From Eledone cirrhosa (Eukaryota): DNA of 64,000 nt. Below the pieces are notes generated by a model. That model did no database searches. It was not told the origin of the DNA and worked only from the letters and a program-made list of their open reading frames with translations. Positions 22,801-60,104 of this stretch are shown here, in pieces. Numbering within the stretch: position 1 is the stretch's first letter; the number at the start of each line of letters is the position of its first letter. Location: positions 405,418,001 to 405,482,000 of the forward strand of contig OZ024740.1 in assembly GCA_964016885.1 (NCBI GenBank), given 5' to 3'. Made by a program: the position numbers and the translations under genes.

Positions 22801-25800
22801 TAGTGAATCAGTCCTAATTTCATTTTCATTTTTCTCACATTCTTTCTGCTTCCTTTGAAAAGCTTTACAAAATGGACATTTCAGGTCAAGTCAATGAAAG
22901 TAATCTATTTTTCAGATACAGATTAAATGTTATTTTTTTAACACTGCACAAGTGTTGATCAGAAAATGTTCAAATATCTTATTACATTTTCAAACTGTGG
23001 AGTATTTTGATTGCTTCCAATACTTTGGACAAAAATGTTATTAAAGAAGGCTTGTGACATGATATTTAACATTTTGAACCCACTAGCCCAAGGTTATAGC
23101 CATAACAATGTTTGACTATATCCCACCAGCCCAGTATTCTAGTCCCAACAATATTTCACTATATCCCACCAGCCCGGTATTCTAGTCCCAACAATATTTC
23201 ACTATATCCCACCAGCCCGGTATTCTAGTCCCAACAATATTTCACTATATCCCACCAGCCCGGTATTCTAGTCCCAACAATATTTCACTATATCCCACCA
23301 GCCCAGTAGTGTAGTCCCAACAATATTTGACTATAACCCACCAGCCTGCTATTCTTGTCATAATCACATTTGACTATATCCCACCAACCCAGTATTTACC
23401 ATGTCTGACACAACTGAAGAGTTTTCTAAATCCTTCATTTGGCAGGTTTTCTATAGCTGGATGTCCTGCCTATCACCAACCACTTTACTGAGTGTGTTTT
23501 ACAGTGACACCAACACTAGAGAGGTTGTTGTGCCTTTGACACACAATTGAAGAATCGTCTCAACCCTTTTTTTAGCATAGTTTCTATAGCTGTTTGTATT
23601 TTTTTTTAAATTGATTTCATAAATTTTATGCTGCTAACAAAACTCAATTTACAGAGTAATGCATATATTTGACATATTTCATCATCATCATCATCATCAC
23701 CGTTTTACGTCCGTTCTTCCATGCTAGCATGGGTTAGACGGGTTGTCCTGTTGTGGGCAGTGTCTGGTCGGCTGACCATGCCTTGCTCATACAGGAACTG
23801 ATTTGGCTTGATTTCTACAGCTGGATGCCCTTCCTAACACCAACCTCATTTACAGTGAGTGCTGGGTGCTTTTTCCGTGGTGCCTACACGTCCACTTTAC
23901 AGTGTGGGCTGGGTGCTTTTTTGCCGTGGCACCTCCACGACCACCTTGCAGTGGGAGGGTGTGGGGGCATATTGTTTATATGCTTCAGCTTGTACCCATG
24001 GGAGGTCGGGTACTATGTATTACTGCGTGATGCCAGAGGTCACGGTCGTGTGTCATTGCCTTTGAGAGGTGTAATTGGAAAAGGTCGCGTTTATCACCTC
24101 ATCCCAGGTCTTCTTGGATCTCCCTACTCCGCGGTCTCCATTGACTTCTAGTGCTCTGCACCTTTTTATGCAGCTGTCATCCTTCATACGCATCACATGT
24201 CCATACCAACGCAACCGCCTCTCCTGCACACAGCATTTGATTCCTCTTATGCTCAGTCTCTCTCAATTCATTTATGCTTTGTCGTTCGCGTATATTACTA
24301 TTACACATCCATTGGAGCATGGAGGCTTCGTTTCTTTCTAATCTACGTAAGTCTTCCACCTTCAGCGCCCAGGTCTCACTACCATGTAACATTGCTGTTT
24401 GGATACACGCATCATACAGTCTGCCTTTCATTTTGAGGGAGAAGCCTTTTGCAGCTAGCGGTGGCAGTAGTTCCCTGAACTTCTTCCATCCCGTTCTTAC
24501 CCTAGTTATTGTACTTTCTGAACACCCACCTCCGCTGCTAATTCGGTCACCTAGGTAGCAGAAGCTGTCTACTGTTTCTACAGAGCCCTCCCAGAGATTG
24601 GTGGTACTTGTTTCCTGTGGCTGTTTGCTGCTTGCTGTCCCAGCACAGCTGCTGCATGTGAAGCCTACATTCTTAATTAAGCTTACTGAGATCCCGCTAC
24701 ATCTCTTGTGTACCCATTGTTTGCATTTGGGGCAGAGAATAGAGTTCCTACCTACATCTTTCCTACATACTGAGCAAGGCCATTTCCCTGAGGGGATCTG
24801 GGTTCTGTTTTCTCGTCTACTTACAAGGACCTTAGTCTTTGTCATGTTGACTTTGAGACCCTTTCTTTCTAGTCCCTGCTTCCAAGTTTGGAATTTCTTC
24901 TCTAGTTCTACCATAGATTCAGCTATAAGTGCAAGGTCATCATCATACAGGAGTTCCCATGGGCATCCGGTCTTAAACTCCTCCGTTATTGCCTGCAGGA
25001 CTATGATGAACAGGAGAGGGCTAAGAACAGAGCCCTGGTGGACACCAACCTGTACGCTATGTCTATATACTAACAAATGTGTAACTTTACAGACATATTT
25101 CTGCAATTTGGTTACCTTTATACTGTATATATGCATCATCATCATTGTGTGTATCATCATCATCATCTTCGTTTAACGTCCATCTTCCACGCTAGCATGG
25201 GTTAGACAGGAGTTGTCCCACTTGAGGCAAGGTTGGTCGGGTGACTGTGTCTCGCTGATATAGGACTATCTGGCAGGTTTTCTACGGCTGGATGCCCTTC
25301 CTAACACCAACCACATTTAGTGTGGAACTGGGAACTTTTTACCATGTTACCTACACGGCCACATTACAGCGTGGACTGTGTGTTTTTTTGTCATGACACC
25401 TACACGATCTCGATCTCATTATCTCATTTATTTGGACTGGATGTTGTGGTACCAACTTTACAGAGAGAGGGTGGTGTATATAACTTTATCCATCAACTAG
25501 TGATTTATTGCCTATTGTTTCATCTAAGTAAACCTTTCTTCAGATTGTACTCAATCTATAGCTTAAATTCCTATTACACATCTCAAAGTTCAAAACAGTC
25601 AATGAACAAATAAATTAATTGGATCTTTAAGTAAAGCTACAATATATTGAATGTCAAGGAAAATATATTATCTATATAAGTAAAAGTCAAATCGTATCTG
25701 TCTGTCCGTGTGTCAGTCTGATCGTGAGATGAATGAGTTAAAACAAAGGAAGGGGATGGTGAAAATTCTATGGTGAAAACAAAAATCAGAGTTTCAACTT

Positions 25801-39962: not shown

Positions 39963-41136
39963 TTATTTAATGATTCCCTGTATTTTGGGATTTTAATCCG
40001 TTCGGCTACGAAAACAGTGACCCTCACATTTACCGCTGCATCCAGGGTGTGGGCGGGAGCAAAAGAGTCACTGACTGACATCTCAGATGGGACATCTACC
40101 TAAAAAGTATTAAAGAAGAATGACAAGTGAGATGGTTTTTTTCTTTCTCTTTTGAAAACTCAGACAATTTGATTGCACTTTCTTAATTCTACAAAAATTG
40201 TATTCATTCTAACCCAATTTAGAGATAAAAAAAATATATTTCTGCATTCGTGTAGATACATTATCTAAAACTATTCTATTTACTATTCGTGTAGGTAATA
40301 AATAAATTCATCTGGCTTTATTCGTTGTATTTATAGTGGAAAAGCATACTTTTGATATCAAGCTGTCCCTGATTCTATAATACAAAACTTTATTTTAAAA
40401 TCTTCCATCTTAATTTTATGTAAGAGCCTTTGTTATGTTCCAAACAACAAATACATTAGGAAAAAACTAGTTGTATTACTAAATCACTCTAAATCTTTGA
40501 TTATTTTGAACATTATTTGAAAAGTATTAGGAATGTATTTCATTGGAAATATGGTAAAGAAAGGGTTAAATGGCGAAGCGATTACAATACACCAATTCAA
40601 ATATTCATTCTATGACACGACAACGTTAATTGATAACTCATTGAAATCTTTCAACGTTGTAAATTAGTTACATTGCTTCTTAACTTATGTTAATAATTCC
40701 TTGTGATGACTGATGGATTTTGTTAGAGGGACTGATGCAGAAAACGTTTTTCGAAATATTGTCCAAGTCAGTGACTTCCAAAGTGTGGATGTATTAGGTC
40801 CCAGGTTCGATTCCACTGCGTGGTTTCATCATTGTTTTTACAGAATTAACTATATTGTTAACACTGGCGATTATTAGAATTTTCTTTCTTAGTATCTTCA
40901 ATACTATTAAAATGAATCAGGTTCAGGGCTAAATAAGCAAAATAAGCACACATTTAGGACATCAAACGAAGAGGGGCAGCATTTTATTGAAATTATATGT
41001 ATTTGGAAAAAAATGAAACGAAATTTCATTTCCCACTCTTAGTACGGCTGTTACTTAAATATAAGTATGTACACGTACATACATATATGTATACAGACGT
41101 ACAGTAGTATGTATATATATATACATACATGCACAC

Positions 41137-41467
41137 ATATATATATGTACGTATGGATTCACCGAACATTTATTATAATGCTCGGTGTGTTTGTATACAA
41201 ACATCCCGTATTAAGCCGTAGTGTCCAGCAACCATCGTTGCTCGTTTGTTCAACACTGACAAAGGAACGCTGTACTAGTTTCAAGCTTATTAGCTATCGT
41301 CAGCAACGTATACTTTCCTGCCAGATTGTTGAACATATATACTTACCTTATGCATGTTAACGGCTGAGTAGCCCAATTTGCATATCGAGTGGGTTAATCG
41401 GCCGGGTTTACAAACACACCGAGCATTATAATAAATGTTCGGTGAATCCATACGTACATATATATAT
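41137..41467 (-). mobile_element. Small hammerhead-containing element bounded by 59-bp perfect inverted repeats in a TA-rich microsatellite
   Basis: 41137-41195 is the reverse complement of 41409-41467. Confidence 0.8.
41267..41309 (-). ncRNA. Minimal type I hammerhead ribozyme (variant)
   Basis: acguug-CUGACGA-uagcu aaua agcuu-GAAA-cua-GUA-cagcgu; stem I pairs with one GU, and the base of stem II is a U-U mismatch. Confidence 0.7.
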
Positions 41468-43300
41468 TCGTTGACCTGTGTACTCCTTAACGCAACTTAC
41501 AATGACTCAGCATGAATCACAGATACATCCAACGAGCTTCCAAACAGTTTCTTTCAACCCACATTTTGTTTCTCAAGCAATGACTCTATTAAAGGTTACG
41601 ATTAAAAACACAGATGCCTCTCAGTGAGATCAAACTCGGAACCGGAAGATTATGAAATTAATCATTCGGCCATGCTGCACCCATGGAAAATTACGTAAAA
41701 CGAAAGAAAAATATTTCATCACACTTCGAAATCATCGTTTTATGAAAACAATTCTTCTTTATAACCACTTAAAATTTTTTTTTAAATATTTTATAACGTC
41801 AAAAAACTATTTTACTACATCGTGTCAAAAAAAGTTGCTTCAATGGGACATCACGGGAAAAATTTGCTTCATTGCGAAATCACCTCGTAATGACATTGCT
41901 CAAGACAAAGATGTGGCTATAATAAATTGTAGTGGGCCAGTGCATTACTGGTTCTGCTAAGATGAAAAGAAAATGTTAACTATGTAAGATTTGAACTTAA
42001 TAAAACAAAAAAGGAGCGAAGTCATTTTTTTTTTACATCTCACCGCCGCCTTCTAAAGCACTCCATGTTGAAATCGTCTGATTCGACAGGCAAAAAAAAA
42101 TTAATGGACCTCAGTCGGTTTCGATGCTGAGTTTTCCTATTGTTCGATCTACCCGTGAAAGTGGCTAAATATCTCATAGACACATGTACCTGTAATTATT
42201 TTCAAATAGATTTAGTGTATGACAAGGGTTTGAAGAACAGTTTCTGTCTGCCCAATTTTAGTCACAGAGTTTGGGTTGACTCGAAGTCATGATAAGGGAT
42301 AAGATACCTTACAATTAGAGCAAACCCAGAAGCTCGTGATTGTGAAACGAACTCCTTAAACCTTTTAGCTACTGTGTTGTCGTGCCGAATTAACCTAGTA
42401 GCAAGAGTAACATAGACACTGCACTTTTATGAACCCCGTGCTAAATGCTTCATACTATAGTACTCTATGCTACAAATTCCGCATAAACCTAAACTGACAT
42501 TGCTGTCTTGTCTCGCCACCGCCTATCTCATGATTTGTTTTATTTGCTATATTTCGTGTTAGTAATAATTGTTTCTACTTTTGGCACGAGGCCAGCAAAT
42601 AACCAGTGTGTTACTGGTACTTTATTTTATCGACCCCATAAGGATGAAAGGCAAAGTTAACCTCGGCGGGATTTGAACTCAAAATGACAAGGGCCGAATG
42701 CGGCGAATTGGCAGAGTTGTGAGAACATCGGATAGAATGCTTTGCAGTATTCGTACTGGCTCTCTGTTCTCTGAGTTCAAATACCACCAATATCAACTTT
42801 GCCTTTTATCCATTCGAGGTCGATAAAAATATACAAGTCTAGTACTGGGGTCAATCCTTCCTCCATATCTCTTTCTCACTTACATTCTCCCACTCTCTAT
42901 CTTTCTCTAGAAGAAATAGGTTGTGCTCAGACCTGGAGAAGAGATGGGCTCCGCCAGGTTTTAAAATGTTCCAAGATATGCTGTATGTAAATATGGCGCC
43001 CCTACGACTCCACCAGGAGTTACGGGTTCATACATACAATGATGTTGAAAGAAAAACTCGAAGCTATCTCAAGGTATTTTCAAAATTCGTCTTGACAAAC
43101 ACCTCTTCGAAGTTGATAAGGATGAAGGTACATGGTCAATCTCACTTTGGTGTAATAGTAGCGCAGCTGTCCGGTATATGGCAGGTCAGGTGTGAGTTCT
43201 CACATGCGATACTGTCCATTTTTTCCACTTCTAAGGAGCTTATATGTCCAACTTATTGGACTATTTTTCATAGTAAAAAAAAAACTACGTTGAAGCAGCT

Positions 43301-43527
43301 TACATCAAGCTAACACATACACGTGTGCGTGTAATTAAATACTTTTCATTGAAAAATTATTTTTAGATCGCGATAAAGCCCTGATGTTGACCGTATTTCC
43401 TCCCTATATATATACATCAAGCTAACACATACACGTGTGTGTGTAATTAAATACTTTTCATTGAAAAATTATTTTTAGATCGCGATAAAGCCCTGATGTT
43501 GACCGTATTTCCTCCCTATATATATAC
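43301..43527. repeat. ~113-bp direct tandem duplication
   Basis: tacatcaagctaacacatacacgtgtg...ccctatatatatac twice. Confidence 0.9.
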
Positions 43528-44282
43528 CTAATACTCTATACTGTAACCAAAGGGTGCAGATATACCCTGGATGGCATGTTTGGTCAATTCAGATGTGTAT
43601 TGAGTTGTGCTTTTCGGTGGGGGTAGCAAATTCAAGGATACCCTGATCGCTCGGGCGACACAGACTCTAGCTTTACGACAGCTAGTACTTAATTAACTTT
43701 GTTGAAAAGAAATACTCACGTTCACACTATCAGTTTTAACCCCGCAAATTATTTGAAACCAAACCTAAATATATATTCTAACATGGAATTCATTTAGCTG
43801 TAAGGTGAATATTGTAATTATTGTTACGTCTATAATTTCATACCTAAATCACTAGATAATTAATGCAGGATAAAGATAGTTTATGAGGTGAATTGGCAGG
43901 GTCGTTAGAACTTTGGATAGAATGTTTTACAGTATTTGTTCCAGCTCTCTACGTTCTGAGTTCAAATCCTGTCGAGGTCAACTATGTCTTTCGTCCTTTC
44001 GAGGGCGATAAAAATGCACCAGTCTAGTACTTGGGTAGATACTTCCTCTATATCTCTTTCTTTCATTCTATGGAAGTAATCGGCTGTGTTCAGACCTGGA
44101 GAGGGGATGGGCTCCATCAGGTTTAAAATGGCCAAGACATTGCGGCTCCATATATAGTATACATATTGTCAATATATATAAATAACATCTGAATGACTCA
44201 GATGAGTGGACTGGACAATCACACAGAGGCTATTTCAACAGAGTTGTTTCTCCTCATATTGACAATCTGTATACTATGTATG

Positions 44283-45597
44283 TATAGCGAAGATACTGGG
44301 TTGTATGAATGTAACAAGGAGACATGGTTTGTGTGTATAATATTTAATTAACAATCTAACAGTATAGTTGACATGTCAATAAAATAGATGAAAGAATGAA
44401 GCAAAGTTAGTAGTTACCGTTTTGATTGCCAGGCAAACGCGAGACGCCTGGCGAAGGCCAGGCGCCGGAAGGGCAATGAGAAGGAGAGAGCCGAGAGCTA
44501 TTCGTTTTATAGGGCTCTGCCGAAAGTTACAGAAAGGGTTCTACTTCCCGTCTAGATGTTAATCTATTGGGGTTGTGAGTCACAACAAGGGAGACAACTG
44601 CCACATAACCTCCCGCCAGAATTTTAGAATAAAATCGAATGAAATATGTAGCAAGTTGGCGAGATTGTTGTAACAGGCATGAAAATTACGACAAAAGAAT
44701 GTTTGCAAAAATCAATGATAGATATCAAGGTAGCCAACCGCTCTTGACCAGAGAACGACTGGACATCTATCTATCCATCACCCAAAGATACAATGTAATA
44801 AAGTAAGAGAAGAGCTCAAAGTTCAAATGTACAAAATATAGTTCACAAGTGTGCAATCACATGACAGCAGGAAAGAAAGTGTGTTCCAGAGAATGAATGC
44901 AGGTGGTTTCTGTTCTGTGGTATATCGTGAAATTTCCAACCTCCGAATGGATTTTCTCACAGGAAGAGTGCTGCAAAAATATATTCTCTGGCTTGTTCTG
45001 CTGGTTTTGGTTGTTGATGAAGCTGTGTTGCTGTGGATGTTGTCGTCTCGCTGAGTGAGCGTATTCGGTGTTTAAATTCACAGTAAAAAAAATATTTTTT
45101 TTCAGAAAAAATGAGTTGCGCAAGTGCTAGAAATAACAGCCGAAATTGATGGTCGATGTTGAGAATGCGTTGACCTGGAAGGGTCAAGAGGCCAGCGACC
45201 AAAGAAATAAGCATTCTGAATAAATGCGCAGTTTTCAACGGCAAATTTACGTGGTAAATTTTTAAACCGGCAAATAGGAGAATATAGCTTAAGGCTGAAG
45301 AATCCTTGGCGAGAAACGTTATCTCTGGCGTGCGGCTATCACTGTGAGTCGAGAATTTGTGCTGCCTACACGTGCCAATACAAGGTTAAGTTAGGTTGAA
45401 AAAATAATATTTCTAACGCGCGAGAAAATGATAGTGTAAGTGTGAAAGTGACAATGATGGGCTTCACTTAGCATAATTATTGGTGTGAACTTTGCAAAAA
45501 AAAACTTGAACGATGAAGAAAACGATGAAAAAAAAAAAGGCAATGGTTCATCTAAAATAAATGTTCCTGTTGAAATGTTTTTTAAAGAATATCAAAT

Positions 45598-45631
<34 letters not shown>

Positions 45632-46231
45632 TGTTCGTTGTAAGAAACGAGAAACATATATATATATCGTGAAATGCGACAGTTAGTTGATGCGTGAGAG
45701 AAAAAGTCTGTCTGTGCGAAAATTTCACATGTGCGTGGTGTGTTCGTTTCTTTTACTGAGTATTTTCATAGTTTGTCAATAAATTTGCTGTGTATTCGTA
45801 ATGCTACTCACACAACACCAGATTCCGCTATTTATTCCTTTTTTCGGGGTGACCACTTATAACAATGAACGGCTGCGTGTTGGTATCACGTCAGGGTTAC
45901 CAATATAGCGAAGATACTGGGTTGTATGAATGTAACAAGGAGACATGGTTTGTGTGTATAATATTTAATTAACAATCTAACAGTATAGTTGACATGTCAA
46001 TGAAATAGATGAAAGAATGAAGCAAAGTTAGTAGTTACCGTTTTGATTGCCAGGCAAACGCGAGACGCCTGGCGAAGGCCAGGCGCCGGAAGGGCAAATG
46101 AGAGGGAGAGAGCAGAAGGCTATTCGATTTATAGGGCTCTGACTGGAAGTTACAGAAAGGGTTCTACTTCCCGTCTAGATGTTGTTAATCTATTGGGGTT
46201 GTGAGTCACAACAAGGGAGACAACTGCCACA
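44283..46231 (-). mobile_element. Non-autonomous LTR retroelement (LTRs 44283-44605 and 45904-46231)
   Basis: TSD TATG; PBS TGGTAACCCTGACGTGAT (45902-45885, tRNA-Trp-like); PPT ggcgggagg; no recognisable pol. Confidence 0.9.
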
Positions 46232-46557
46232 TATGTGATGATAACGATCCCATAACTCCTTGTGGAGTCGTTGGGGCACCGTCATCCGGCGTGTCTAGGA
46301 TACTTCTAAACCTGGCAGAGCCCAACCCTCACCAAGGTCTGAACACAGCCGATATTTTCTGTAGAGGAAGAATCGACCCCAGTACTGGACTGGTGCATTT
46401 TTATCGACCTCGAAAAGATGAAAGATATAGTTGACCTCGACAGGATTTGAACTCAGAACGTAGAGAGCTGGAACAAATACTGTAAAACATTCTATCCAAA
46501 GTTCTAACGACCCTGCCAATTCACCTCATAAACTATCTTTATCCTGCATTAATTATC

Positions 46558-46740
46558 GGTGGATTGGCAGTATCGGTAGAGGGTCGGACGCCATGCTTTC
46601 CAGCATAGTTACGTCCCTTTACGATCTGAGTTCAAATCCTGCCGAGGTTGACTTTGCCTTTCATCCTTACGGGGTCGATAAAATAAAGTACCAGTAATGC
46701 ACTGGGTAATTGCTGGCCTTGTGCCTAAAGTAGAAACAAT
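46558..46740 (+). mobile_element. Young SINE inserted in the right arm of the inverted duplication
   Basis: TSD attaattatc; the empty site is visible in the left arm near 43855. Confidence 0.9.
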
Positions 46741-47844
46741 TAATTATCTAGTGATTTAGGTATGAAATTATCGACGTAATAATAATTACATTCACCTTAC
46801 AGCTAAATGAATTCCATGTTAGAATATATATTTAGCTTTGGTTTCAAATAATTTGTGGGGTTAAAATTGATAGTTAATTAAGTACTAGCTGTCGTAAAGC
46901 TAGAGTCTGTGTTGCCCGAGGGGTCGGAGTGTCCTTGAATTTGTCATGTTCCCATCCCCAATAATTATATTTTTCTCCCCAAACTACCAAAACACATCTA
47001 TTTTTATGTTATAATTTATGTACGTTATGTTTATGGCATGTCCAAGTTTTTTTTATATCTTAATTGACATTTGATAATAAAACTGTAATATATTATGTTA
47101 ACCTGCATAGTAAATTTTTTTTGTCATGTCATAACTTTTTCTCCACATCAATTGCCAATTGCTAGTATGTGTATTTCATTGCTGATTTCATTGGTCATTT
47201 TGCTATAATCACTTTATAATTATTGAAAGATGCAAATGTAATATGACCTGCTTGAACTCAAATTGCATTTTCTGACCATTTTAGAGTTCAAAGAGCTAAA
47301 TTAATTGACCAAATTTACTTTCCCCCACTCCCAATTCAGAAATGCTTCCACCGCTCCTGAGTACACATCCGAATTGGCCAAATGTGCCACCCAGGATATA
47401 TAATCACCCTCTGAATATTGAGGGAAGGCAAAATGTGTTGATACAGTCAACAACATCATTATCTAAAACTAGTTTTTCAATGTAGGTTTATTATTTTTTT
47501 AGTATGAAAAATAATTGAAGTTTGGCATATAAGCCTGGAAATGGAATAAGTGGACAGAATCGAACTTACACCTGCCGTATGCCGACAACTGTGCTACTAT
47601 TACACAAAAGTGAGACTGCCCACTTACCCCACATGTTTTTAGTATTTATCTATTAAATAGTGGATGTAAACCCAGAATCAATTGTATTTCAAAAAGCATT
47701 GAGGAAATTTTAATTTTGAAACGATGTTAGCTTAATGTAAACTGCTTCCGCACACGGGTTTTTTTTCTGGACATTGAAAAATAGTCAAACAAGTTGGGCA
47801 TATAATAATCCTAGAAGTGGGAAAAGTGGACGATATATATATAT

Positions 47845-49755
47845 AACGTGCCCTAAAACTCAGTACCCAGGACCTTAGACACCCTAAAGTAAATCAACCG
47901 AAACTAAAAGCTCTTCCATACATCTCCACACAACCCCCTCAACAATGACGCCTTTGACACCATCCTCCAGAACATCCCTGTGTTAAAAAAGGACCATAGA
48001 ATGAACCAAATCCTACGAACACACGATATCATAAAGAGCAAAAGACAATCTAAGTCAATGAAAAACATCCTAACACATGCCAAAGTACTGCCAACCACAA
48101 CAACGAAACCCACAGTAAAAAAATGCGATAGACCCAACTGTGGCATATGCATCAACCTAATAGAGGGTTCGGAATTCTATTTCAAAGAAGGACAACGTTT
48201 TATAGTAAAACACAATTTCACATGCGCATCAGAAAATCTAATATATGTATTAACTTGCTCAGGTTGTCGAGAACAATACATAGGCCAGACCAAAAACAGC
48301 CTCAGCCAACGCATGACTGTCCATAGATCCCAAATTAAAATACGGGAATACAGGAAAATACCACTGAGTGAACACATTGATACCTGTGCCGCCCAAAGTC
48401 ATCCCAACTTCAGAATCTTTCCCCTCTACAAATTTAAAGATAATGCCACCCACACCCAGCGCATCAGCAAGGAATCTCACTTTATTAACAAATACGGACC
48501 CCGTCTAAACACTTCTCCCTAAGACGAACCCACAACATACACACGTCAACATACATACCTACATCAGCATACATCCTACATACATCTCTATCCACATATA
48601 AACACAATGACATACGTAAACACACATGTTCTATGGTGCAACACAAATATACACAAATTTGCATACCTTTTGATGTCTATAGATATAAACGTGCCGACAC
48701 ACACACATACATATACGCACACATGCATTGCACACTGATGGGCACATACATATTTGTACACAAGTATTCCAATACGGCAAGGCCTAATGGATTCTCCTTG
48801 CAGTACGTGCAATCTGGACACTCTCACACACACCTTGGTGTTATGCCAATACTATATATCACTTCACACCTTTTATTATTAAGGTTTTTGATGTTCTATT
48901 GAGAGAATCGTTTTTACTGAAAATATCGAATAATGTACATCATTTTTACCAGTATCACAAAAATACTGGTCCACCCACACACACATACACACACACACAC
49001 ACACATATATACACACACACATACACACGTGTACACTAACATACAAAGAGACATATACACACTTCTCCGTATAAGACAAGAGCTGAAAAATATCTTTTAA
49101 CATGTTAAAATAGCCCCCACACACGTACAGACACATTCCTACTGACCGATCCCTCTACCACGAATTACTCTGCTACGCACACACACACACACTTGTCTTA
49201 ATAGGCATCTGAACTGTTGACCTGTCAACAAACTGCAATTCACACACACATCCCTACTGACCATTATCACAACAATGAACCTCTTTACGACTACTACACA
49301 CACACACACATATTTGTCTTGAAAGACTTATTTTTCAGTGACTTCTCAATCAACCGAGACAAACCTACATTTGGCGCAAAATCAATTTTTAACATTCACA
49401 TGACCTCTACCGACCAATCAAAATTGTTTTGACCACAATAATTTTTGCAACACGAATTGGCGCGAAACCTATTTTAATACATCTGGAGCCACTTTTTTCA
49501 CATAAAAAAGGTAGAATTTCCAAAACTAATCAGATTAGAGCAAACATCACGGGCGCTCTATCTCAAAATTATTTTTGAAAAGCATTAGAAATGCGCAACC
49601 GGTAAAAACTTAAAACCAAAACCGAATACTAACTAATACTATTACTAATTTTTACTTATTCCTAATGAAACTATTTTTTACTGGGAACAATTTGTCAGCA
49701 TTTTCTTTTCTTTTTACCAATATATCATAACTCGTGTGTTACACCTCTATTCTTT

Positions 49756-49757
<2 letters not shown>
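47845..49757 (+). mobile_element. Penelope-like element 3' part with GIY-YIG endonuclease
   Basis: CDRPNCGIC...NLIYVLTCSGCREQYIGQT...R...H in ORF 47980..48522; bounded by (TA)n. Confidence 0.88.

Positions 49758-49822
<65 letters not shown>
49758..49822. repeat. (TA)n microsatellite
   Basis: Pure TA run. Confidence 0.98.
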
Positions 49823-49828
<6 letters not shown>

Positions 49829-51800
49829 CGTAGTTTAGAAAGCCACAACAATGCAGAGGGAAATCTCGAGGTAGGAAGTGAATGATAGATAGGAGAAATA
49901 GGATAAAGTGAAAATTGAGAGAGACAAAGGTGAAAACAAAACAAAGGTAGAAGGGTTACCGTAGTGGAGATTTAATCCCAATATTTCGGGCTCACGCCCA
50001 TCAACGGGGGAAAGTTCCAAAAGGGGGGGAACAGGCTAAGCGGAGAAAGTTGTGATGTCGTTAAAACAGGAATGCCGTTATGGGGAGAAAAATTATTTAA
50101 AATTTAAATGAGGGGAAAGAATGCGCGTGCGCGTGATAGGCTGTGGCAAAAGCTACTGACCAAATGGGTTAAATCAAGAGGGTGCGCTAGCGTGTGAAAG
50201 CCGTAAAATATGTGTGTGTAAATATATATGTGTGTGTATATGTGTAAGTGTGTATATGTGTGAGTGTGTGTGTGTGTGAAAGATAGTGGGCTGTAGAAGC
50301 TGGAAATCAAAGGGTGTGAAAGGTGGTAGGTTGTAAAACATGTGTGCGTGTATAAATATAGATGTGTGTGTGTAAGCGTATGGGTATACATGTGTGAGTG
50401 CGTGTGTGTGTGAAAGATAGTGGGCTGTAGAAGCTGGAAATCAAAGGGTGTGAAAGGTGGTAGGTTGTAAAAACATGTGTGCGTGTATAAATATAGATGT
50501 GTGTGTGTATGCGTATGGGTATGCATATACGTACGTGTGTGTGAAAATAGCAGGCCGTAAGGGCTGTGAAAGGTCACTATGGTTAAGTTAGCCATGTCAG
50601 CTCATTTCTCTCAGCCCGGTTGTTAAGTGGGGGTCTGAGGTTCTTAATAACAAGTGCTTCCTTTATCCTTAAGGATCCGATGCTGCGTTCAGTCGCTAGG
50701 ACTGTGACCAAGGGTCTACCCTGTGGGTTTCCGCATTTAAGGATGTGTTTACGGAAGGAAGATGCGTTGGTGTTGATATGTTCCTTGATACGAACATGTA
50801 GGGGTCGGATGGTGCTACCTATGTAAAACTTGTTACATTTATCGCATTGAATCTTATATACGACATAGGTGCGTAGGCAATCTGCCCCCCCGTATCGGGC
50901 AGTTGCTGAGGGAACACGTCCCATCTGACTCGTCGGGTTTGTTGGAGAGGCATCTTCGCAGCGAAGGTCCTGTGTGGGCCAAATGTATGTCAAGTCCCTC
51001 CGTCCGTATGGCCCTGTGGATGGCGTTCGTGGTATATTCACTCAGGTGGGGGATTTTAAAGAAGCACCTGCTTTTATTTAAGTTTCTAGTGGGTGTCTGT
51101 CTATTGGGTCTGGGGTCTCTAATTCCGTTAATCAGTCGCTTGGGATATCCATTAGACTTGAGTAGATTACGGAATTGCGTGGTATGGGTGAGACCACCCA
51201 TCGGGTCGCTGCATCTGTTAGTGATCCATGTCAGTTCATTTAGGACATAGCCTCTCTTAGCGTTGTTGGGGAGGGCTGAGTTGTAATGCACAAATAAGTC
51301 CTTGCAGGCTGCTTTGCGGTAGAAGGTGGTGTTTATGTCTCCTTCTTCCGAGATGTTGATACGGAAGTCGAAGAGGGCGAGTGACCCGTCTTCTCCTGGG
51401 TGTTCGATGGTGAAATCGACGTGATGGTCAGTATCGTTGAAGATTTGGTGAATTTCATTCGCCATCTCCCGGGAAGAAGTAAGTATCAGGATATCATCAA
51501 CGTATCTGGAGTAGAAGGCGACGGCGTTGGGTTGGCAGGTATTGAGTGCCTTGCGTTCCAGGTGGTCCATGTACGAGATCGCAAGTATGCCGGACAGACT
51601 AGAGCCCATAGGTAGCCCAGAGATTTGTTTGTACGTGTGGCCGAGGAAATTGAAGAGTGCATTATCCACAACGAAGGAGGGGAGTTGGTGGATGTCCGTG
51701 TGTGTGAGTCCGAAGCAGTGTAGGTTAGATGCTCGGACTCGTTCGGTCAACAGATCGACGGCTGGGGATGCTGGTACGGAGGTATAAAGGGCGACCACAT
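49823..51800 (-). mobile_element. Penelope-like element: RT C-half + GIY-YIG (frameshifted) + 3' region
   Basis: QISGLPMGSSLS, RYVDDI, FTIEH, FYRK (50854..51798); VVYKIQCDKCNKFYIGST...R..EH (50583..51041). Confidence 0.92.
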
Positions 51801-52769
51801 CAAGATATAAGTTATATCAGTTTCTGTTGACAGGCCAATGCATAAAATTATGTTATCAAGGATTCTTACATAACAGATTTATTGTAAATTAAATTCGCTT
51901 TTAACCATTGTAAGCAAATAAGAGACGAAATGGTACCACTAGTGTTATTCTTGAATTCCGGTTATACACATTATGGCAAATAACATATTCATATTCACGT
52001 GGCCTTGTGATTATTCAAATAATCCAAAATTCATATAATAAATATTTGGATAGAGATTTGGCTGTATTCTTGCACTGCAAAAATGTTTCAGGAAATTAAC
52101 GATTAATCTTCAGCTGACATTGTAAAATTATCAGTATTGACTTTATTAATTCTCAAATATCAAACGAGTGTACCAATTAATTATTCTATTGCTGAAGTGG
52201 ACGCATGCCCAATCAGACAAAATTGCTTAGTTATGAAACAAATGCAATTTTTTATATGTTTATTAAAAGCCTAGGTCACATCTTGTGTATTTAAAGTATA
52301 TAGTGACCAACACAGAGAACATACAAGTAAGACGATATATGAAAGAACGTAGCAACAGAGAATCCAAACTACATTTAGTTAGTACTTTCATTGCCATATT
52401 TCTAATAAAAAAATTACTGCCTATCATTTTGGAGGGATTTAGCTTTCTCATGTTGGCAGCGAATTGCCAGAGTCGTTCAGACGACTGATATGTTTTGCAG
52501 TTTTTGTTCTAGCCCTCTAAGTTGAAATCAGTTGGGAGGTCAGCTTTGCCTCATTTCGAGGTTGATAAAAAAAAGTATCAGTCAAGCACCGGGATTGATT
52601 CTTCCTTTATATCTCTTTCCAATTCCATTCTCTCTCTCTCAAACCTAGGAGGATGAGCTCCGCCAGGTTTAAAGTGCCCAAGTCGTTCACCGACATCGCT
52701 CTTACGACTCGGGAATTAACGGGTCCATACATACATACACATTTCTCATTGTTAAGTTGGTGTTTGCTT

Positions 52770-52982: not shown

Positions 52983-53695
52983 AAATTGCTGTTTGGAGTA
53001 TAGCTAGTATAGATTTGGGTTGTTTACTGTAATTAATGTTAGTGGCACAAAGTATACGAAAAGAAGATATTTGGTGGTATACTAGCATTGACTGTGGGTG
53101 GTGCTGCTGCATTCTCTATTGATGGCAGAGAGGATATCCTTAAGTATGATATAAATTGGTGGGCTGCGGGTTTATGTTTAGTAATAATAAGTTCCATAGT
53201 TGATGAAAGAATCCGAAAGCATATTTAAACTTATAATAATGGTTTATTCTCTTTAGAACAAATTAACACATAGTTTCATCGTGAAGTAGGCTGCATAAAG
53301 ATCAGTAAATGAGTTGCATTAGTTCTCTCAGGACAAAACCTGGAACGCAACTGAACTGAATAGATATTTAGGCGCGAATTCGTCTACTGGGCGGAAATTG
53401 TGCTTGGTATCCCTACGCCGCCAACATGAAGGCCTGGCGACTGACTAAGCACGACCCAATTATTCTGCCGCAATAAGGTAGTGCCATTGCTTGCTACAAG
53501 AGCATAACTGAACAAATGTTCTTACATAAAATTATGGTGGAAGGGTTTTAAATAATTAACAGACCACCCGTGACGCGTTGGGGCACGTTCACTTAAAAAT
53601 CATTTTTAAATAATTGAAATATACACAGACATATATAATGTAAAATGAAATTGGAAAGCTCATATATATGTGTGTATGTGTATATATATATATAT

Positions 53696-54346
53696 ATAAA
53701 AACAAATAACGAAACGAAATTAAATTTCGTTTCGTTTGTAACTCACTTTTGTATGACTGACGCTTAAACAATTAAGTTAAAAGTGTACATCCACATATGT
53801 ATACTGAAATACTAGTATGCATATAAATACACACACGTATACATATGTACATGTACCGAGCTTTTCACTGGACACTTTACTGTGAGTGTTCAGCTAGTCC
53901 GTATGTAAACACACAGACAAACCGGTTTTTAGAGTCATACTGGTTTTCGAGGAAACACCTTTCCTCTATTCTCCAGAGAGCCAGACAGGAATATTGGACT
54001 AGTTTCGATGTTATTACATCTCATCAGCAATATATACCCATCCTCCGGCCTCTCTAGAGAATCCTAAAAGCACATATCGTTATATGCTTTTTCTATGAAA
54101 ATTAGTAGTGGGCAGACTAATTTGCATAGAGTGTGAGTACGTACCGGTTCAGCGGAAACGATAAAAACAAATAACGAAACGAAATTAAATTTCGTTTCGT
54201 TTGTAACTCACTTTTGTATGACTGACGCTTAAACAATTAAGTTAAAAGTGTACATCCACATATGTATACTGAAATACTAGTATGCATATAAATACACACA
54301 CGTATACATATGTACATGTACCGAGCTTTTCACTGGACACTTTACT

Positions 54347-54350
<4 letters not shown>
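53696..54350 (-). mobile_element. Retrozyme-like element: 465-bp monomer, 1.4 copies (190-bp terminal direct repeat), between (TA)n runs
   Basis: 53696-53885 equals 54161-54350; hammerhead lies in the unique part. Confidence 0.8.
53991..54033 (-). ncRNA. Minimal type I hammerhead ribozyme (canonical core)
   Basis: auauug-CUGAUGA-gaugu aaua acauc-GAAA-cua-GUC-caauau; 6-bp stem I, 5-bp stem II, palindromic stem III, GUC triplet. Confidence 0.9.
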
Positions 54351-55708: not shown

Positions 55709-56007
55709 TATATGTGTGTATTTTCATCATCATCATCATCGTTTAACATCCATAGTCCACGCTAGCATGGGTTAGACGGTTTTGTTCCATTTGATGCGGG
55801 CGGGAATGGTCGGGAGACCGTGTCTCGCTCGTACGGAAGTGTCTCTGGCAGGTGTGTGTATATATATATATATTATGCGTGTGTGTGTGTGTGTATTCCA
55901 GAGTCGGGCTAGATCGATACAGATCGAACCTTGAGCTGATCAATAGCGAAATGCGCGTCACTACTCAATAAACGTAATGGCGACGTAACAAAAAATCATC
56001 CTTTTTG

Positions 56008-56201
56008 ACCATCCGTGACACGTTGGGCCACGTTCACTTAAAAATATTTTTTAAATAATTAATATACACAGACATGTATATAATTTAAAATGAAATTTAG
56101 CAGGAAATATTCGCTAAACACATCCTGTCTTAAGACAAGTTATATGATACATATGACTTAATAATCAGTCACCAAATAATTTCTTTCAACAACACCATCA
56201 G

Positions 56202-57016: not shown

Positions 57017-60000
57017 TGTAGCGCTCTCTAGACAAAAGAAGTAGCCAAAGTGACTTCCCGTAGAATTTCTAGAAACTCCTTGAATTTCCGTTTCAGATAT
57101 TATAAAAGATGGAGCAAAGGACAATCTCCCTCTTTTCCACCTCTTGGCTGCCTGGCCTTAAGGCCAGGTATGGTTACGCCAAAAGGTATACTCTCTTTCA
57201 CCAACGGCTCTAGAACTGACCACACCAAGCACATATGCTAAACTTTTCTAATCCTATCCTATACCTCAGGATTACACCACGTCATGGCACGAGGTACGTT
57301 TCACTACCAAAATTGTAATAAGCTACTTCAATTACTACATCGTCATTTCTTTTACATCTTCTAAACAAATTAAATTAGTGGTTGGCATGTAGTGGCGTTT
57401 ACTGGAGTATGGCCAATTCACTAAACTGGTGAACCCGACGTGGGACGATATATTTCAACTAGTTAAAAAAAATGGTTACCCCATTTTCGTTGGAATGTGT
57501 CGACCAACATTTCGAACACGCAACAAACTTTATTAACAAACTAGGAAAAATACGCAGACACAGAAACGAACACACGCACATGTGAAATTCTTGTTCAGAC
57601 ACTCTTTTTCTCTCACCTAACTTGATATATTTTTTTTCGGACTAAGAAATCCCTCCGACCGCCTTAGACATGGATTTCTCTCCGCATACACTGTCTTATA
57701 ACGAACACTTCGAAAAAAAAATATATATATATATGTTTTCGTTTCTTCTTACAACGAACAAAAAAAATTGGACTTTTATTTTACACATTTCAATATGAAT
57801 ATTTATTTTTGCTGAATTTCAACTATTGCTTACTCTTCCCACCAAGCCTTTTTCATCATTCACCGAAAAAATTCAAAATGGCGTTTTTTGCTCTATTTGC
57901 TTTCACTGGCAGCCATCTTGTCTTCTTCGTTTCGTCATTTTCCCGCGCGGTGGATTTTACCAACACACTCATTGCTATTCATCTCAAAGAATAGTTCGGC
58001 CACGAGCTACTTTATTAATGCCAGTAAAAAACTTTGCGTCACAAATTGACGTCACTTGCTGGGCATTTTTATGCACGTTCGTTCTGCGGTCAGCTACTTA
58101 AAAGAAACTTATCTGAACTTACTCAGATCACTGCGCTTAACTGTTTTTCTTCAACATTGACCAACCTACTTTGGATTCGCTGGACATTTCCTCTGACCAG
58201 TTCTGCTGTAAATTGGAATATTTACCTCTTCCATCTTCTGAAGGAAAAATTCACTGCGATATCTCTACTCGCTCACACGGACCACTTCTCCAAAATTGCC
58301 AGCTAAAGTAGAGGCAATTCAGCAATTAGCACCACCAACATCATTGAAACAATTACGCCATTTCTTAGGATTAATTAACTTTTATCGTCGCTTTATTCCT
58401 AACTGTTCGGACAAGTTATTCCCCTTGACAGTTTTTAAGAGCTGCAAAAAAGAAAGATGAACAAATTTCACTTTCTGCCGATGCATTGCAGTCTTTTAAA
58501 TCCGTCAAGTTTGAGCTAGCTAAAGTTTCCTTCCTTTCCCATCCTGTTGCAAATGCGAGACTTTCCTTATCTGTTGATGCATCTGATCGTGCTGTTGGCG
58601 CAGTTTTGCATCATGTAATCGATCACCGAGTTCAACCATTGGCATTTTTCTCTCGCCAATTAAAACCAGCAGAACAGCGATACAGCACCTTTGACAGAGA
58701 ACTGTTGGCGATTTATCTTGCCATGAAGCACTTCCACCACCTTTTGGAGGGGCGAGAGTTCACGATATTCACGGACCACAAACCGTTAACGTTCGCTTTA
58801 CAATCCAAGTCCGACAAGTACTCTCCGAGAGCGCATAGGCATCTGGATCTCATCTCATAGTATACCAGTGACATTCGTCACATAGCTGGAACTTCCAACA
58901 TACCTGCGGAGGCACCATCTCGACTTTCTGTGTGTTCTCTTGTGTCTCCTGCACATATCGATTTAGTTGCCATTGCAACTGACCAACCTACCTTGGAATC
59001 GTTGGACATGAACAGCATCATCATCAACAACAGCTACTGGTAAAACATTTACCACAACAACTACAGCCACAACACCAACGGCGATTTCACAGCAACATAA
59101 CAGAAGTGGTAGTTTCATACTTTTACCGCCACCGCCAACAACAACTTTTATAACAATTAATGCAAGAACAACAACTTTGAAAACATTTTGCACATTTTCG
59201 CCCATGTCAGACTTTATTTGTTTTCTATTAGACCCTAGGTGGTCATGTTATAAATAGCAAACAGCCAGTCATTTGACACAGCAGCATACATAACACTGGC
59301 CCCTTAGCGCCTCATTCATAATTTTCTTCTTGCATTCATTCATTCATTCATTTTTTTGATTGATGTGCTCTTTTTCAGCGTTTTCACACTAGTGATGTAT
59401 GAACTATTTTTTTTAAAGAAACTTTGAACTTACCATTGAGCATTAATTTTTTCTCTGCTCCTTTATGTTAACTTTGAATTATCAGTTTTGTTACATTTAC
59501 ATTTTTTCTTTGTCAAATGCATTTACTTGTTTTGTGCTTGTTTTTCTGCTATTTGCTTCAGTTGCGAGCTTATGTTTTATTCATGCACCTTCTTGTACCT
59601 TTGCTTTGCTCCTCATTTCTTACGGGTTCACGCTACAATAACCTTCGGCTGGTTATTCGACTTCTCGTCTGAGAGGGGAGCCTTGTAGCGCTCTCTAGAC
59701 AAAGGGAAGTAGCCAAAGTTACTTCCCGTAGAATTTCTAGAATACTCCTTGAACTTCCGTTTCAGAGATTATAAAAGAAGGAGCAAAGGACAATCTCCCT
59801 CTTTTCCACCTCTTGACTGCCTGGCCTTAAGGCCAGGCATGGTTACGCCAAAAGGTATACTCTCTTTCACCAACGGCTCTAGAACTTACCACACCAAGCA
59901 CAGATGCTAAACTTTTCTAATCCTATCCTATATCTCAGGATTACACCACGTCATGGCACGAGGTACGTTTCACTGCCAAAATTGTAACAAGCTACTTCAA

Positions 60001-60104
60001 TTACTACAACGTCATTTCTTTTACATCTTCTAAACAAATTAAATTAGTGGTTGGCATGTAGTGGTATTTACTGGAGTAAATAACCCTATGGCCAATTCAC
60101 TAAA
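57017..60104 (+). mobile_element. Internally deleted Gypsy LTR retrotransposon (LTRs 57017-57425 and 59684-60104)
   Basis: TSD CGTT; PBS TGGTGAACCCGACGTG (tRNA-Trp-like); PPT gagaggggag; RT C-terminus/RNase H remnant (VDASD..VGAVL, YSTFDRELLAI, TDHKPL) at ~58230-58930. Confidence 0.93.

What the first reader, a model, noticed from the sequence alone, without database searches (positions are those of the whole stretch)
41137..41467. Second hammerhead element, bracketed by a 59-bp perfect inverted repeat
It looks like a MITE but contains a hammerhead (CUGACGA...GAAA cua GUA) with the same AAUA stem II loop and the same stem III as the 54-kb ribozyme, while stems I and II differ in sequence yet still pair. 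That covariation argues for a conserved structure. The fold-back ends recall the inverted pLTR junctions of Penelope insertions.
Basis: partly seen in the sequence, partly recalled or inferred. Interest (0 to 1): 0.7.

Follow-up and report, generated by a model that had tools for sequence, protein, structure and literature searches.

The report
Hammerhead retrozyme with inverted insertion scar
A 400-base repeat unit holding a hammerhead ribozyme motif has a 59-base inverted copy of its own interior at one end, likely a scar left when Penelope-type retrotransposon enzymes inserted it, and likely not a pair of transposon ends.

Summary
The 59/59 inverted repeat (41137-41195 / 41409-41467) and the minus-strand type I hammerhead (core at 41303, predicted cut 41273/41272) are real. 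The repeat does not bracket the element. The unit runs 41408 to about 41006 and is colinear with the 465-bp unit at 54 kb (252 of 403 columns identical). The left arm therefore lies inside the unit, about 130 bp from its 3' end, and helices with compensatory changes span it. The right arm is an inverted copy of that interior, joined at the unit's 5' end; the 54-kb relative has none, and has a 190-bp direct partial tandem instead. MITE is rejected. Best reading: a solitary monomer of an animal non-LTR retrozyme, probably in an octopod, likely inserted by a Penelope-like RT/endonuclease, with the inverted piece as a copy-specific scar. Covariation holds (4 compensatory changes), but the base of stem II is U.U and stem III is minimal, so weak monomer cleavage is predicted; Rfam does not score this copy. 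Only two relatives could be compared; other copies, expression and cleavage are untested.

The parts
41006..41408 (-). Retrozyme-like monomer (about 403 bp, 37% GC, no sense-strand open frame over 51 codons); the 3' boundary is approximate (41005-41010)
   Evidence: Colinear with 53696-54160: local score 195 against a maximum of 54 in 200 shuffles and 63 in 406 other window segments; 252 of 403 columns identical; frames
41409..41467 (+). 59-bp inverted copy of the unit's interior (41137-41195), joined head-to-head at the unit's 5' end; its outer end is an (AT)5 run; likely an insertion scar
   Evidence: 59 of 59 identical; 61 of 62 with the junction triplet (blastn); the flank beyond 41467 has no window match above background
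41137..41195 (-). Donor segment (left 'arm'), internal to the monomer
   Evidence: Aligns to 53843-53903 at 36 of 59 identity, the same level as the rest of the unit
41263..41319 (-). Type I hammerhead: 6-bp proximal stem I plus 6-nt bulge plus distal stem, core CUGACGA from 41303, stem II with U.U at its base and loop UAAUAA, GAAA, palindromic stem III, GUA triplet, predicted cut 41273/41272
   Evidence: no Rfam hit
41247..41335 (-). Predicted long extension of stem I enclosing the ribozyme
   Evidence: MFE -27.8 kcal/mol, z -2.66, 3 of 200 shuffles as good; unchanged when the IR is included
41160..41187 (-). Predicted 11-bp hairpin inside the donor arm, kept in the 54-kb unit with compensatory changes
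41188..41203 (.). 16-bp perfect palindrome; the inner end of the donor arm (41195) is its centre
   Evidence: blastn self-hit 41188-41203
41043..41220 (-). Predicted long-range 7-bp helix, 41220-41214 with 41049-41043, which spans the left arm and ties the inside of the IR to sequence outside it; two compensatory changes against the 54-kb unit
   Evidence: (columns 228-234 / 413-419)
41009..41032 (-). Predicted 3'-terminal hairpin, matched by the 29-nt hairpin at the 3' end of the 54-kb unit; inferred reverse-transcription start region
53696..54350 (-). Related element: 465-bp monomer (53696-54160) preceded by a perfect 190-bp direct repeat of its own 3' part (54161-54350), in (TA)n on both sides; hammerhead C3 at 54027, cut 53997/53996

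Best explanation
The locus is a 403-bp unit (41408 to about 41006, minus strand) with a type I hammerhead motif, homologous along its length to a 465-bp unit at 54 kb, plus a 59-bp inverted copy of its own interior at the 5' end; it is likely a solitary non-LTR retrozyme monomer, likely reverse-transcribed into AT-rich DNA in trans by a Penelope-like RT/GIY-YIG enzyme, the inverted piece likely being a scar of that one insertion. SHOWN: the extent of the unit, the homology, the internal position of the left arm, the absence of an inverted copy at 54 kb, the compensatory changes, and Penelope-like RT and GIY-YIG fragments in the same window. INFERRED steps: (1) source arrays are transcribed, self-cleave as dimers through the palindromic stem III, and are ligated to circles; (2) first-strand cDNA starts at the 3'-terminal hairpin, not at the ribozyme cut, and runs through the ribozyme; (3) here it stopped about 11 nt short of one full turn, where a circular template meets its own start, whereas at 54 kb it ran 1.4 turns; (4) a second cDNA, primed from the other end of the cut target by pairing with the internal (AU)5 run, ran 59 nt to the palindrome at 41195 and was joined head-to-head through a 2-6-nt microhomology. 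Fold-back of the first cDNA onto the palindrome loop would give the same product and cannot be told apart here. (5) This lone copy is predicted to cleave poorly as a monomer.
For:: end-to-end homology at 62.5%, with the arm region no different from the rest; 41000-41136, outside the IR, has the two 54-kb repeats as its best non-self matches (93 and 92; next 69; 5104 segments), while both flanks are at background; helices predicted from one unit alone are kept in the other at 15 of 23 and 17 of 26 doubly changed pairs (null means 9.6 and 11.7; P 0.016 and 0.031), including a helix that spans the left arm; 41408 maps to 54149, 11 nt from the 54-kb tandem junction at 54160, which points to a fixed monomer length; no inverted copy at 54 kb. 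RVT_1 at 50857-51816 and GIY-YIG at 50586-51041 and 47908-48519. Literature: canonical metazoan hammerheads have a 6-bp helix I, a 4-bp helix II and a 1-2-bp palindromic helix III that needs dimers (PMC4209133); retrozyme repeats are 150-450 bp, under 50% GC, and axolotl HHR_Amex2 has the same U.U (PMC7229834); PLE insertions often carry an inverted 5'-truncated copy and favour (TA)n (PMC8557442; PMC3846280); a PLE protein nicks and extends both strands in AT-rich DNA and starts internally (PMC11167929).
Against: Only two diverged relatives were available, so 'copy-specific' was not tested within the 41-kb family. No tandem array with two ribozymes is in the window. Rfam does not detect this hammerhead. 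The non-microsatellite part of the 3' extension (41000-41062) alone is not above background (35-36 against 39). No sequence link to either PLE fragment in the window (scores 24-56, background level). No clear TSD (15 of 200 random pairs score as well). Published inverted pLTRs reach the element's 3' end or lack only a 30-40-bp tail; this one lacks about 130 bp. The predicted MFE pairs the core with stem III, an inactive fold, and stem III has probability 0 as a monomer. In 10.64898/2026.07.22.740005, 8 of 9 tested Xenopus dimers did not cleave.
Confidence: 0.62

Rival explanations
1. Same retrozyme-like monomer, but the inverted arm arose after insertion by a local replication template switch (about 210-270 bp range), with no part played by the retroelement enzyme.
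For: Local template switches make short perfect inverted repeats (PMC5453318, abstract only). The palindrome and AT run at the two ends of the donor favour switching. Such an event would also end the homology at the junction.
Against: The junction falls within 11 nt of the monomer boundary defined independently by the 54-kb tandem (roughly 2-5% by chance for a 465-nt unit, my arithmetic). The arm leads straight into unique flank, as expected at an insertion boundary.
Confidence: 0.15
2. The unit is the pLTR (3' end) of an autonomous Penelope-like element, inserted 5'-truncated with an inverted partial pLTR, and is not an independent retrozyme family.
For: Direct and inverted partial repeats are the PLE hallmark. 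Retrozymes are related to pLTRs. Selaginella PLEs carry canonical hammerheads. PLE fragments are in the window.
Against: Metazoan PLE hammerheads are mostly minimal, with long helix II and short helix I; these are canonical. Both units start at nearly the same homologous point despite 37% divergence. No ORF start follows the ribozyme. No similarity to the window's PLE 3' regions. Six short unit motifs gave only two hits, for one motif, in unrelated-looking contexts in the PMC8557442 supplement (line breaks can hide matches), and the Hydra-1_Obim hammerhead listed there differs.
Confidence: 0.14
3. A true MITE with 59-bp terminal inverted repeats that captured a hammerhead and inserted into a TA run.
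For: A perfect 59-bp IR, 331 bp overall, no ORF; both arms end in (AT)5, so a TA duplication cannot be formally excluded.
Against: Homology and conserved pairing run through and beyond the left arm. The relative lacks the IR. The flanks of the IR are CAC and TCG. No second copy of the arm pair in the window.
Confidence: 0.04
4. The inverted arm is an assembly or library fold-back artefact.
For: The arms are 100% identical; PLE-type inverted structures are known to trouble assemblies.
Against: The arm is short and followed by unique sequence rather than a long mirror image; the window has no N.
Confidence: 0.04

Closest known systems
Metazoan non-LTR retrozymes (PMC7229834; 10.64898/2026.07.22.740005)
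   Same: Canonical type I hammerhead in a short, low-GC, non-coding, highly self-paired unit; palindromic weak helix III as in axolotl HHR_Amex1; U.U at the base of helix II as in HHR_Amex2; solo monomers are described.
   Different: Here a lone monomer with a 5' inverted partial copy and no tandem of two ribozymes. It combines the weak helix III with the weak helix II. I found no mention of octopus in the main text of either paper, nor of inverted pieces outside one reference title.
Inverted pLTRs of EN+ Penelope-like elements (PMC3846280, PMC8557442)
   Same: Head-to-head, 5'-truncated inverted copy next to the 5' end; direct partial tandem in the relative; AT-rich or (TA)n targets; a palindrome associated with the break point.
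   Different: No RT/EN ORF. The inverted copy also lacks about 130 bp of the 3' end, against a 30-40-bp tail. The palindrome is at the donor site, not at the junction. No clean 8-10-bp TSD. The hammerhead is canonical, not minimal.
L1 twin-priming 5' inversions (as described second-hand in PMC2246262)
   Same: Two cDNAs primed from the two sides of a break, joined head-to-head.
   Different: On a linear RNA the inverted part comes from upstream sequence and is not a duplicate (recalled). Here it duplicates downstream sequence, which needs a circular or multimeric template, a second RNA, or fold-back.
Rfam Hammerhead_HH9 (RF02275, clan CL00010)
   Same: The 54-kb copy aligns over the whole model (33.2 bits, E 7.3e-07 in a 275-base search).
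   Different: Below the gathering score of 52; the 41-kb copy is not detected.
MITEs
   Same: Short, non-coding, long perfect inverted repeat.
   Different: The repeats are not terminal, there is no TSD at the arms, and the relative lacks them.

Membership tests
Type I hammerhead ribozyme | Core CUGANGA ... GAAA ... UH with helices I-III in type I topology | tested here: met
   0 hits in 100 shuffled windows
Type I hammerhead ribozyme | G10.1-C11.1 pair at the base of helix II | tested here: not met
   U.U; a natural U.U variant cleaves weakly in axolotl (PMC7229834)
Type I hammerhead ribozyme | Match to an Rfam hammerhead model at the gathering score | tested here: not met
   No hit at E<=10; the 54-kb relative scores 33.2 of 52 bits
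Type I hammerhead ribozyme | Loop 1 / loop 2 tertiary contact | tested here: inconclusive
   The bulge GUAU and loop UAAUAA are invariant between the two copies; the contact itself was not modelled, and the likeness to the Schistosoma motif is recalled
Type I hammerhead ribozyme | Self-cleavage | not testable with these tools
   Needs an in vitro assay
Non-LTR retrozyme | Short unit (150-450 bp; 51-972 bp in the 2026 preprint), GC below 50%, non-coding | tested here: met
   403 and 465 bp, 37% GC; longest sense frame 51 codons
Non-LTR retrozyme | Canonical, not minimal, type I hammerhead | tested here: met
   6-bp helix I plus bulge, 4-5-position helix II, palindromic helix III against the definitions in PMC4209133
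Non-LTR retrozyme | Tandem of at least two ribozyme-bearing units ('active' retrozyme in the 2026 preprint) | tested here: not met
   This locus is a monomer; the 54-kb relative is a 1.4-mer with one ribozyme. It is therefore filed only as a likely solo derivative; arrays elsewhere in the genome could not be searched
Non-LTR retrozyme | Highly self-paired monomer | tested here: met
   Predicted -138.9 kcal/mol (linear, 401 nt) and -156.7 (circular, 465 nt), with no shuffle control on whole units; cross-unit compensatory changes
Non-LTR retrozyme | Expression as linear and circular RNA | not testable with these tools
   No RNA data
EN+ Penelope-like element (autonomous) | RT plus GIY-YIG ORF linked to the pLTR | tested here: not met
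   No ORF in or next to the unit
EN+ Penelope-like element (insertion signature) | Direct or inverted 5'-truncated partial copy at the 5' end | tested here: met
   Inverted 59 bp here, direct 190 bp at 54 kb
EN+ Penelope-like element (insertion signature) | AT-rich or (TA)n target; optional 8-10-bp TSD and 30-40-bp tail | tested here: inconclusive
   The 54-kb copy sits in (TA)n. Here there are short AT runs; the best TSD candidate (10 bp, 1 mismatch) is matched by 15 of 200 random pairs; no tail seen
MITE | Inverted repeats are the element's termini | tested here: not met
   The left arm is internal
MITE | TSD flanking the TIRs | tested here: inconclusive
   Flanks CAC / TCG; a TA duplication inside the (AT)5 ends cannot be excluded
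MITE | Many uniform copies sharing the TIRs | not testable with these tools
   None other in 64 kb; the host genome was not available

The most novel reading that the evidence does not exclude
The two loci are a matched pair of Penelope-type integration products made from a circular retrozyme RNA. Reverse transcription starts at a conserved 3' hairpin about 265-300 nt past the ribozyme cut and stalls at one full turn of the circle. It is resolved either by strand displacement (direct 1.4-mer at 54 kb) or by second-end priming or fold-back (inverted piece at 41 kb), and both extra pieces end near the same internal hairpin. This would be junction-level evidence that PLE enzymes mobilise canonical-hammerhead circles, which the papers I read propose from co-occurrence and pLTR similarity, and it would be in a likely cephalopod family that my searches did not find described.
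Probability: 0.35. Interest if true: 0.6.

Novelty: new member of a known kind. Interest (0 to 1): 0.3.

Why it matters
As a single locus it is ordinary: animal genomes hold thousands of such hammerhead units, and inverted 5' pieces are a known Penelope signature. Its use is diagnostic. It shows how such an insertion can pass for a MITE. It also gives a sharp genome-wide test of an open question, namely which enzyme moves animal retrozymes and whether the template is a circle. The circle model predicts a fixed 3' end at the hairpin, a peak of 5' ends at one full turn, and variable inverted pieces primed at AU runs.

Tried and rejected
Rfam, whole window and local: only microsatellite-driven miRNA hits near 41 kb and no hammerhead hit for this copy. 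Copies outside the window: none in genome contigs for a shared hammerhead pattern or for a 33-nt stretch of the arm, none in phages or plasmids. These collections are prokaryotic, so the blanks say nothing about copy number in the host. An nhmmer profile of the two units found only the two units, the 190-bp repeat and the inverted arm; the remaining hits were low-complexity AT/CA runs or the units' own palindromes. The 31-nt pattern (2 matches, 0.02 expected) was built from the two copies and is circular, so I do not count it as evidence. A 77-nt version of the IR reported is rejected: the outward extension matches only 12 of 30 low-complexity bases. TSD search inconclusive. No link between the units and the window's PLE 3' regions. 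The antisense ORF 41043-41360 and the neighbouring ORF 41628-41960 have no Pfam match. The shuffle control (24 of 500) is weak with two sequences; the slid controls (23-46% paired against 96%) favour the structure partly by construction. Literature searches for a description of this family: 'hammerhead ribozyme'+'octopus', 'cephalopod'+'ribozyme'+'retrotransposon', 'retrozyme'+'hammerhead', 'Penelope'+'inverted pLTR', 'twin priming'+'inversion'+'Penelope'; none of the listings or passages seen described it. Repbase and Dfam could not be searched, and the supplements of PMC7229834 (unreadable) and of the bioRxiv preprint (closed) might list cephalopod retrozymes.

Full report
OBSERVATION. The inverted repeat is exact: 41137-41195 and 41409-41467 are complementary at 59 of 59 positions and do not extend outward. 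Shuffles of the surrounding kilobase reach at most 13 bp (200 shuffles). On the minus strand between the arms lies a type I hammerhead motif: C3 at 41303, stem II closing on UAAUAA, GAAA, the palindrome ACUAGU as stem III, a GUA triplet, and a predicted cut between 41273 and 41272. A general descriptor finds exactly two such motifs in the window, this one and 54027, and none in 100 block-shuffled windows. Between the two, 13 pairs in stems I-III give 7 invariant, 4 compensatory, 1 wobble change and 1 broken. The broken pair is 10.1-11.1: U.U here, G-C at 54 kb. Rfam scores the 54-kb copy as HH9 at 33.2 bits, under the gathering score of 52, and does not score this copy at all.

THE ELEMENT IS LARGER THAN THE REPEAT. 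Minus-strand 41394-40994 aligns with 54138-53687 at score 195, against a maximum of 54 in 200 shuffles and 63 in 406 other window segments. The global alignment is identical at 252 of 403 columns, and evenly so: 38/57, 45/70, 36/59 (the arm), 43/70, 32/45 and 56/94 from the 3' end to the 5' end. The stretch outside the left arm, 41000-41136, has the two copies of the 54-kb repeat as its best non-self matches (93 and 92; next 69; 5104 segments). Its non-microsatellite 63 bp alone do not beat background (35-36 against 39), and both outer flanks are at background. Structure agrees. Pairs predicted from one unit alone survive in the other at 15 of 23 and 17 of 26 doubly changed positions (null means 9.6 and 11.7, P 0.016 and 0.031). 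Single-sided changes are fewer than independence predicts (33 against 56; 39 against 59). One conserved 7-bp helix, 41220-41214 with 41049-41043, has two compensatory changes and spans the left arm. Both units end in a hairpin. So the left arm is interior, and the right arm is an inverted duplicate of it attached at the unit's 5' end. The 54-kb unit has no inverted copy of the homologous stretch (score 25 against 122 for itself). It has instead a perfect 190-bp direct repeat of its 3' part, which makes it a 1.4-mer of a 465-bp monomer set in (TA)n.

JUNCTIONS. The unit's 5' end at 41408 maps to 54149, 11 nt from the 54-kb tandem junction. Two insertions 37% apart thus share a unit boundary; the chance is about 2-5% by my arithmetic. 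The donor's outer end is an (AT)5 run, which cannot be told from target DNA. Its inner end is the centre of a 16-bp palindrome (41188-41203), and 5 of 6 bases match across the junction. The 5' end of the 54-kb direct repeat maps to 41177, 18 nt from 41195; this is suggestive only, about 8% by chance. Zero differences in 59 and in 190 bp bound the divergence at 5% and 1.6%, so both extra pieces are young. A 10-bp, 1-mismatch TSD candidate (40994 / 41459) is matched by 15 of 200 random pairs and is inconclusive.

CONTEXT. The window holds Penelope-like debris: a frameshifted RT plus GIY-YIG at 50586-51816, and a GIY-YIG with a cysteine-rich linker at 47908-48519, both ending at (TA)n. The three named relatives among 19 hits of the RT are Octopus bimaculoides proteins at 52-58%, so the host is probably an octopod; this is inference, not identification. 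Neither fragment shares sequence with the units. Octopus Naiad and Hydra families with (TA)n preference are listed in the supplement of PMC8557442, and their listed hammerhead differs from these.

MECHANISM. Shown: anatomy, homology, covariation, absence of the repeat in the relative. From the literature: canonical metazoan hammerheads with a palindromic 1-2-bp helix III work as dimers (PMC4209133). Such units form non-LTR retrozymes expressed as circles; axolotl HHR_Amex2 has a U.U at the base of helix II and cleaved 22% in an hour as a monomer, and Amex1, with a helix III like ours, 6% (PMC7229834). PLE insertions often carry direct or inverted 5'-truncated copies and favour (TA)n (PMC8557442, PMC3846280, PMC8969392). 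A purified PLE protein cuts AT-rich DNA, extends both strands and initiates internally (PMC11167929). Inferred: a PLE enzyme copied a circular or multimeric unit RNA from its 3' hairpin. The template cannot have been a cleaved linear monomer, because both insertions run about 135-165 nt upstream of the cut site. Synthesis stalled just short of one turn, and a second short cDNA primed at the AU run from the other target end was joined head-to-head. Fold-back of the first cDNA gives the same product. In a transcript the IR would form a 59-bp duplex, but it leaves the ribozyme's helix probabilities unchanged. Stem III has probability 0 as a monomer, while the palindrome dimer is predicted at -6.8 kcal/mol, so this lone copy is predicted to cleave poorly.

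RIVALS. A later replication template switch (0.15) and a solo pLTR of an unseen autonomous PLE (0.14) remain open. A MITE (0.04) is contradicted by the colinear homology, and an artefact (0.04) is unlikely.

LIMITS. All comparative evidence rests on two sequences. What I read: 10.64898/2026.07.22.740005 parts 1-3 of 5 plus a term search (supplements closed); PMC11167929 parts 1-2 of 4; PMC4209133 parts 1-2 of 4; PMC7229834 parts 2-4 of 6 plus passages (supplement unreadable); PMC8557442 passages and supplement searches; PMC3846280, PMC8969392, PMC5680766 and PMC2246262 passages; PMC5453318 abstract. The likeness of the loops to the Schistosoma hammerhead, the clade labels Poseidon-like and Neptune-like, and the geometry of L1 inversions are recalled and come from no call.

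VERDICT. A real feature, re-drawn: likely a solo retrozyme-type monomer with a Penelope-style inverted 5' piece, not a TIR element. It works like a non-LTR retrozyme but fails the tandem criterion at this locus, so membership is provisional. New member of a known kind; interest 0.3.

Noticed in passing
window 49824-51816 (-): 5'-truncated, frameshifted Penelope-like element (RVT_1 plus GIY-YIG) ending at the (TA)n at 49759-49823. Its 3' region holds what looks by eye like a decayed minimal hammerhead near 50005-49975 (stem II GGGC-GUGA-GCCC, GAAA, damaged core), which my descriptor did not detect.
   Followed up: partly
window 47846-49758 (+): 3' piece of a second PLE (GIY-YIG with a CxxPxCxxC linker, Neptune-like by recall) between two (TA)n runs, tail-to-tail with the first element across one microsatellite.
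   Followed up: partly
window 6198-7223: A 1-kb element with 181-189-bp inverted ends at 96-97% (151 bp perfect) around a GC-richer centre; three frames had no Pfam match. It could be a true TIR element or another inverted insertion.
   Followed up: partly
window 43127-47831: Nested inverted duplication (43127-43272 / 47503-47628, 43627-43864 / 46739-46943, 43855-44128 / 46304-46557) around a 330-bp direct repeat at 96% (44283-44607 / 45904-46233), with a dispersed repeat inserted in one arm.
   Followed up: no
window 53511-53652, 56007-56097, 40389-40569, 3284-3934: Another dispersed repeat family that abuts the 54-kb element across its (TA)n flank and has a diverged copy about 450 bp left of the 41-kb unit.
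   Followed up: no
window 57075-60043: 300-bp direct repeats at 96%, 2669 bp apart, with an RT RNase H fragment at 58429-58857: a probable decayed LTR retrotransposon.
   Followed up: no
window 11618-13714 (-): 698-codon open frame containing an 18-bp tandem repeat of about 40 units; only a weak LED-repeat Pfam match below the cut-off.
   Followed up: no
window 24180-25172 (-): RT fragment followed by a PHD finger (RVT_1 E 1e-12, PHD E 7e-08), an unusual pairing for a LINE-like 3' end.
   Followed up: no
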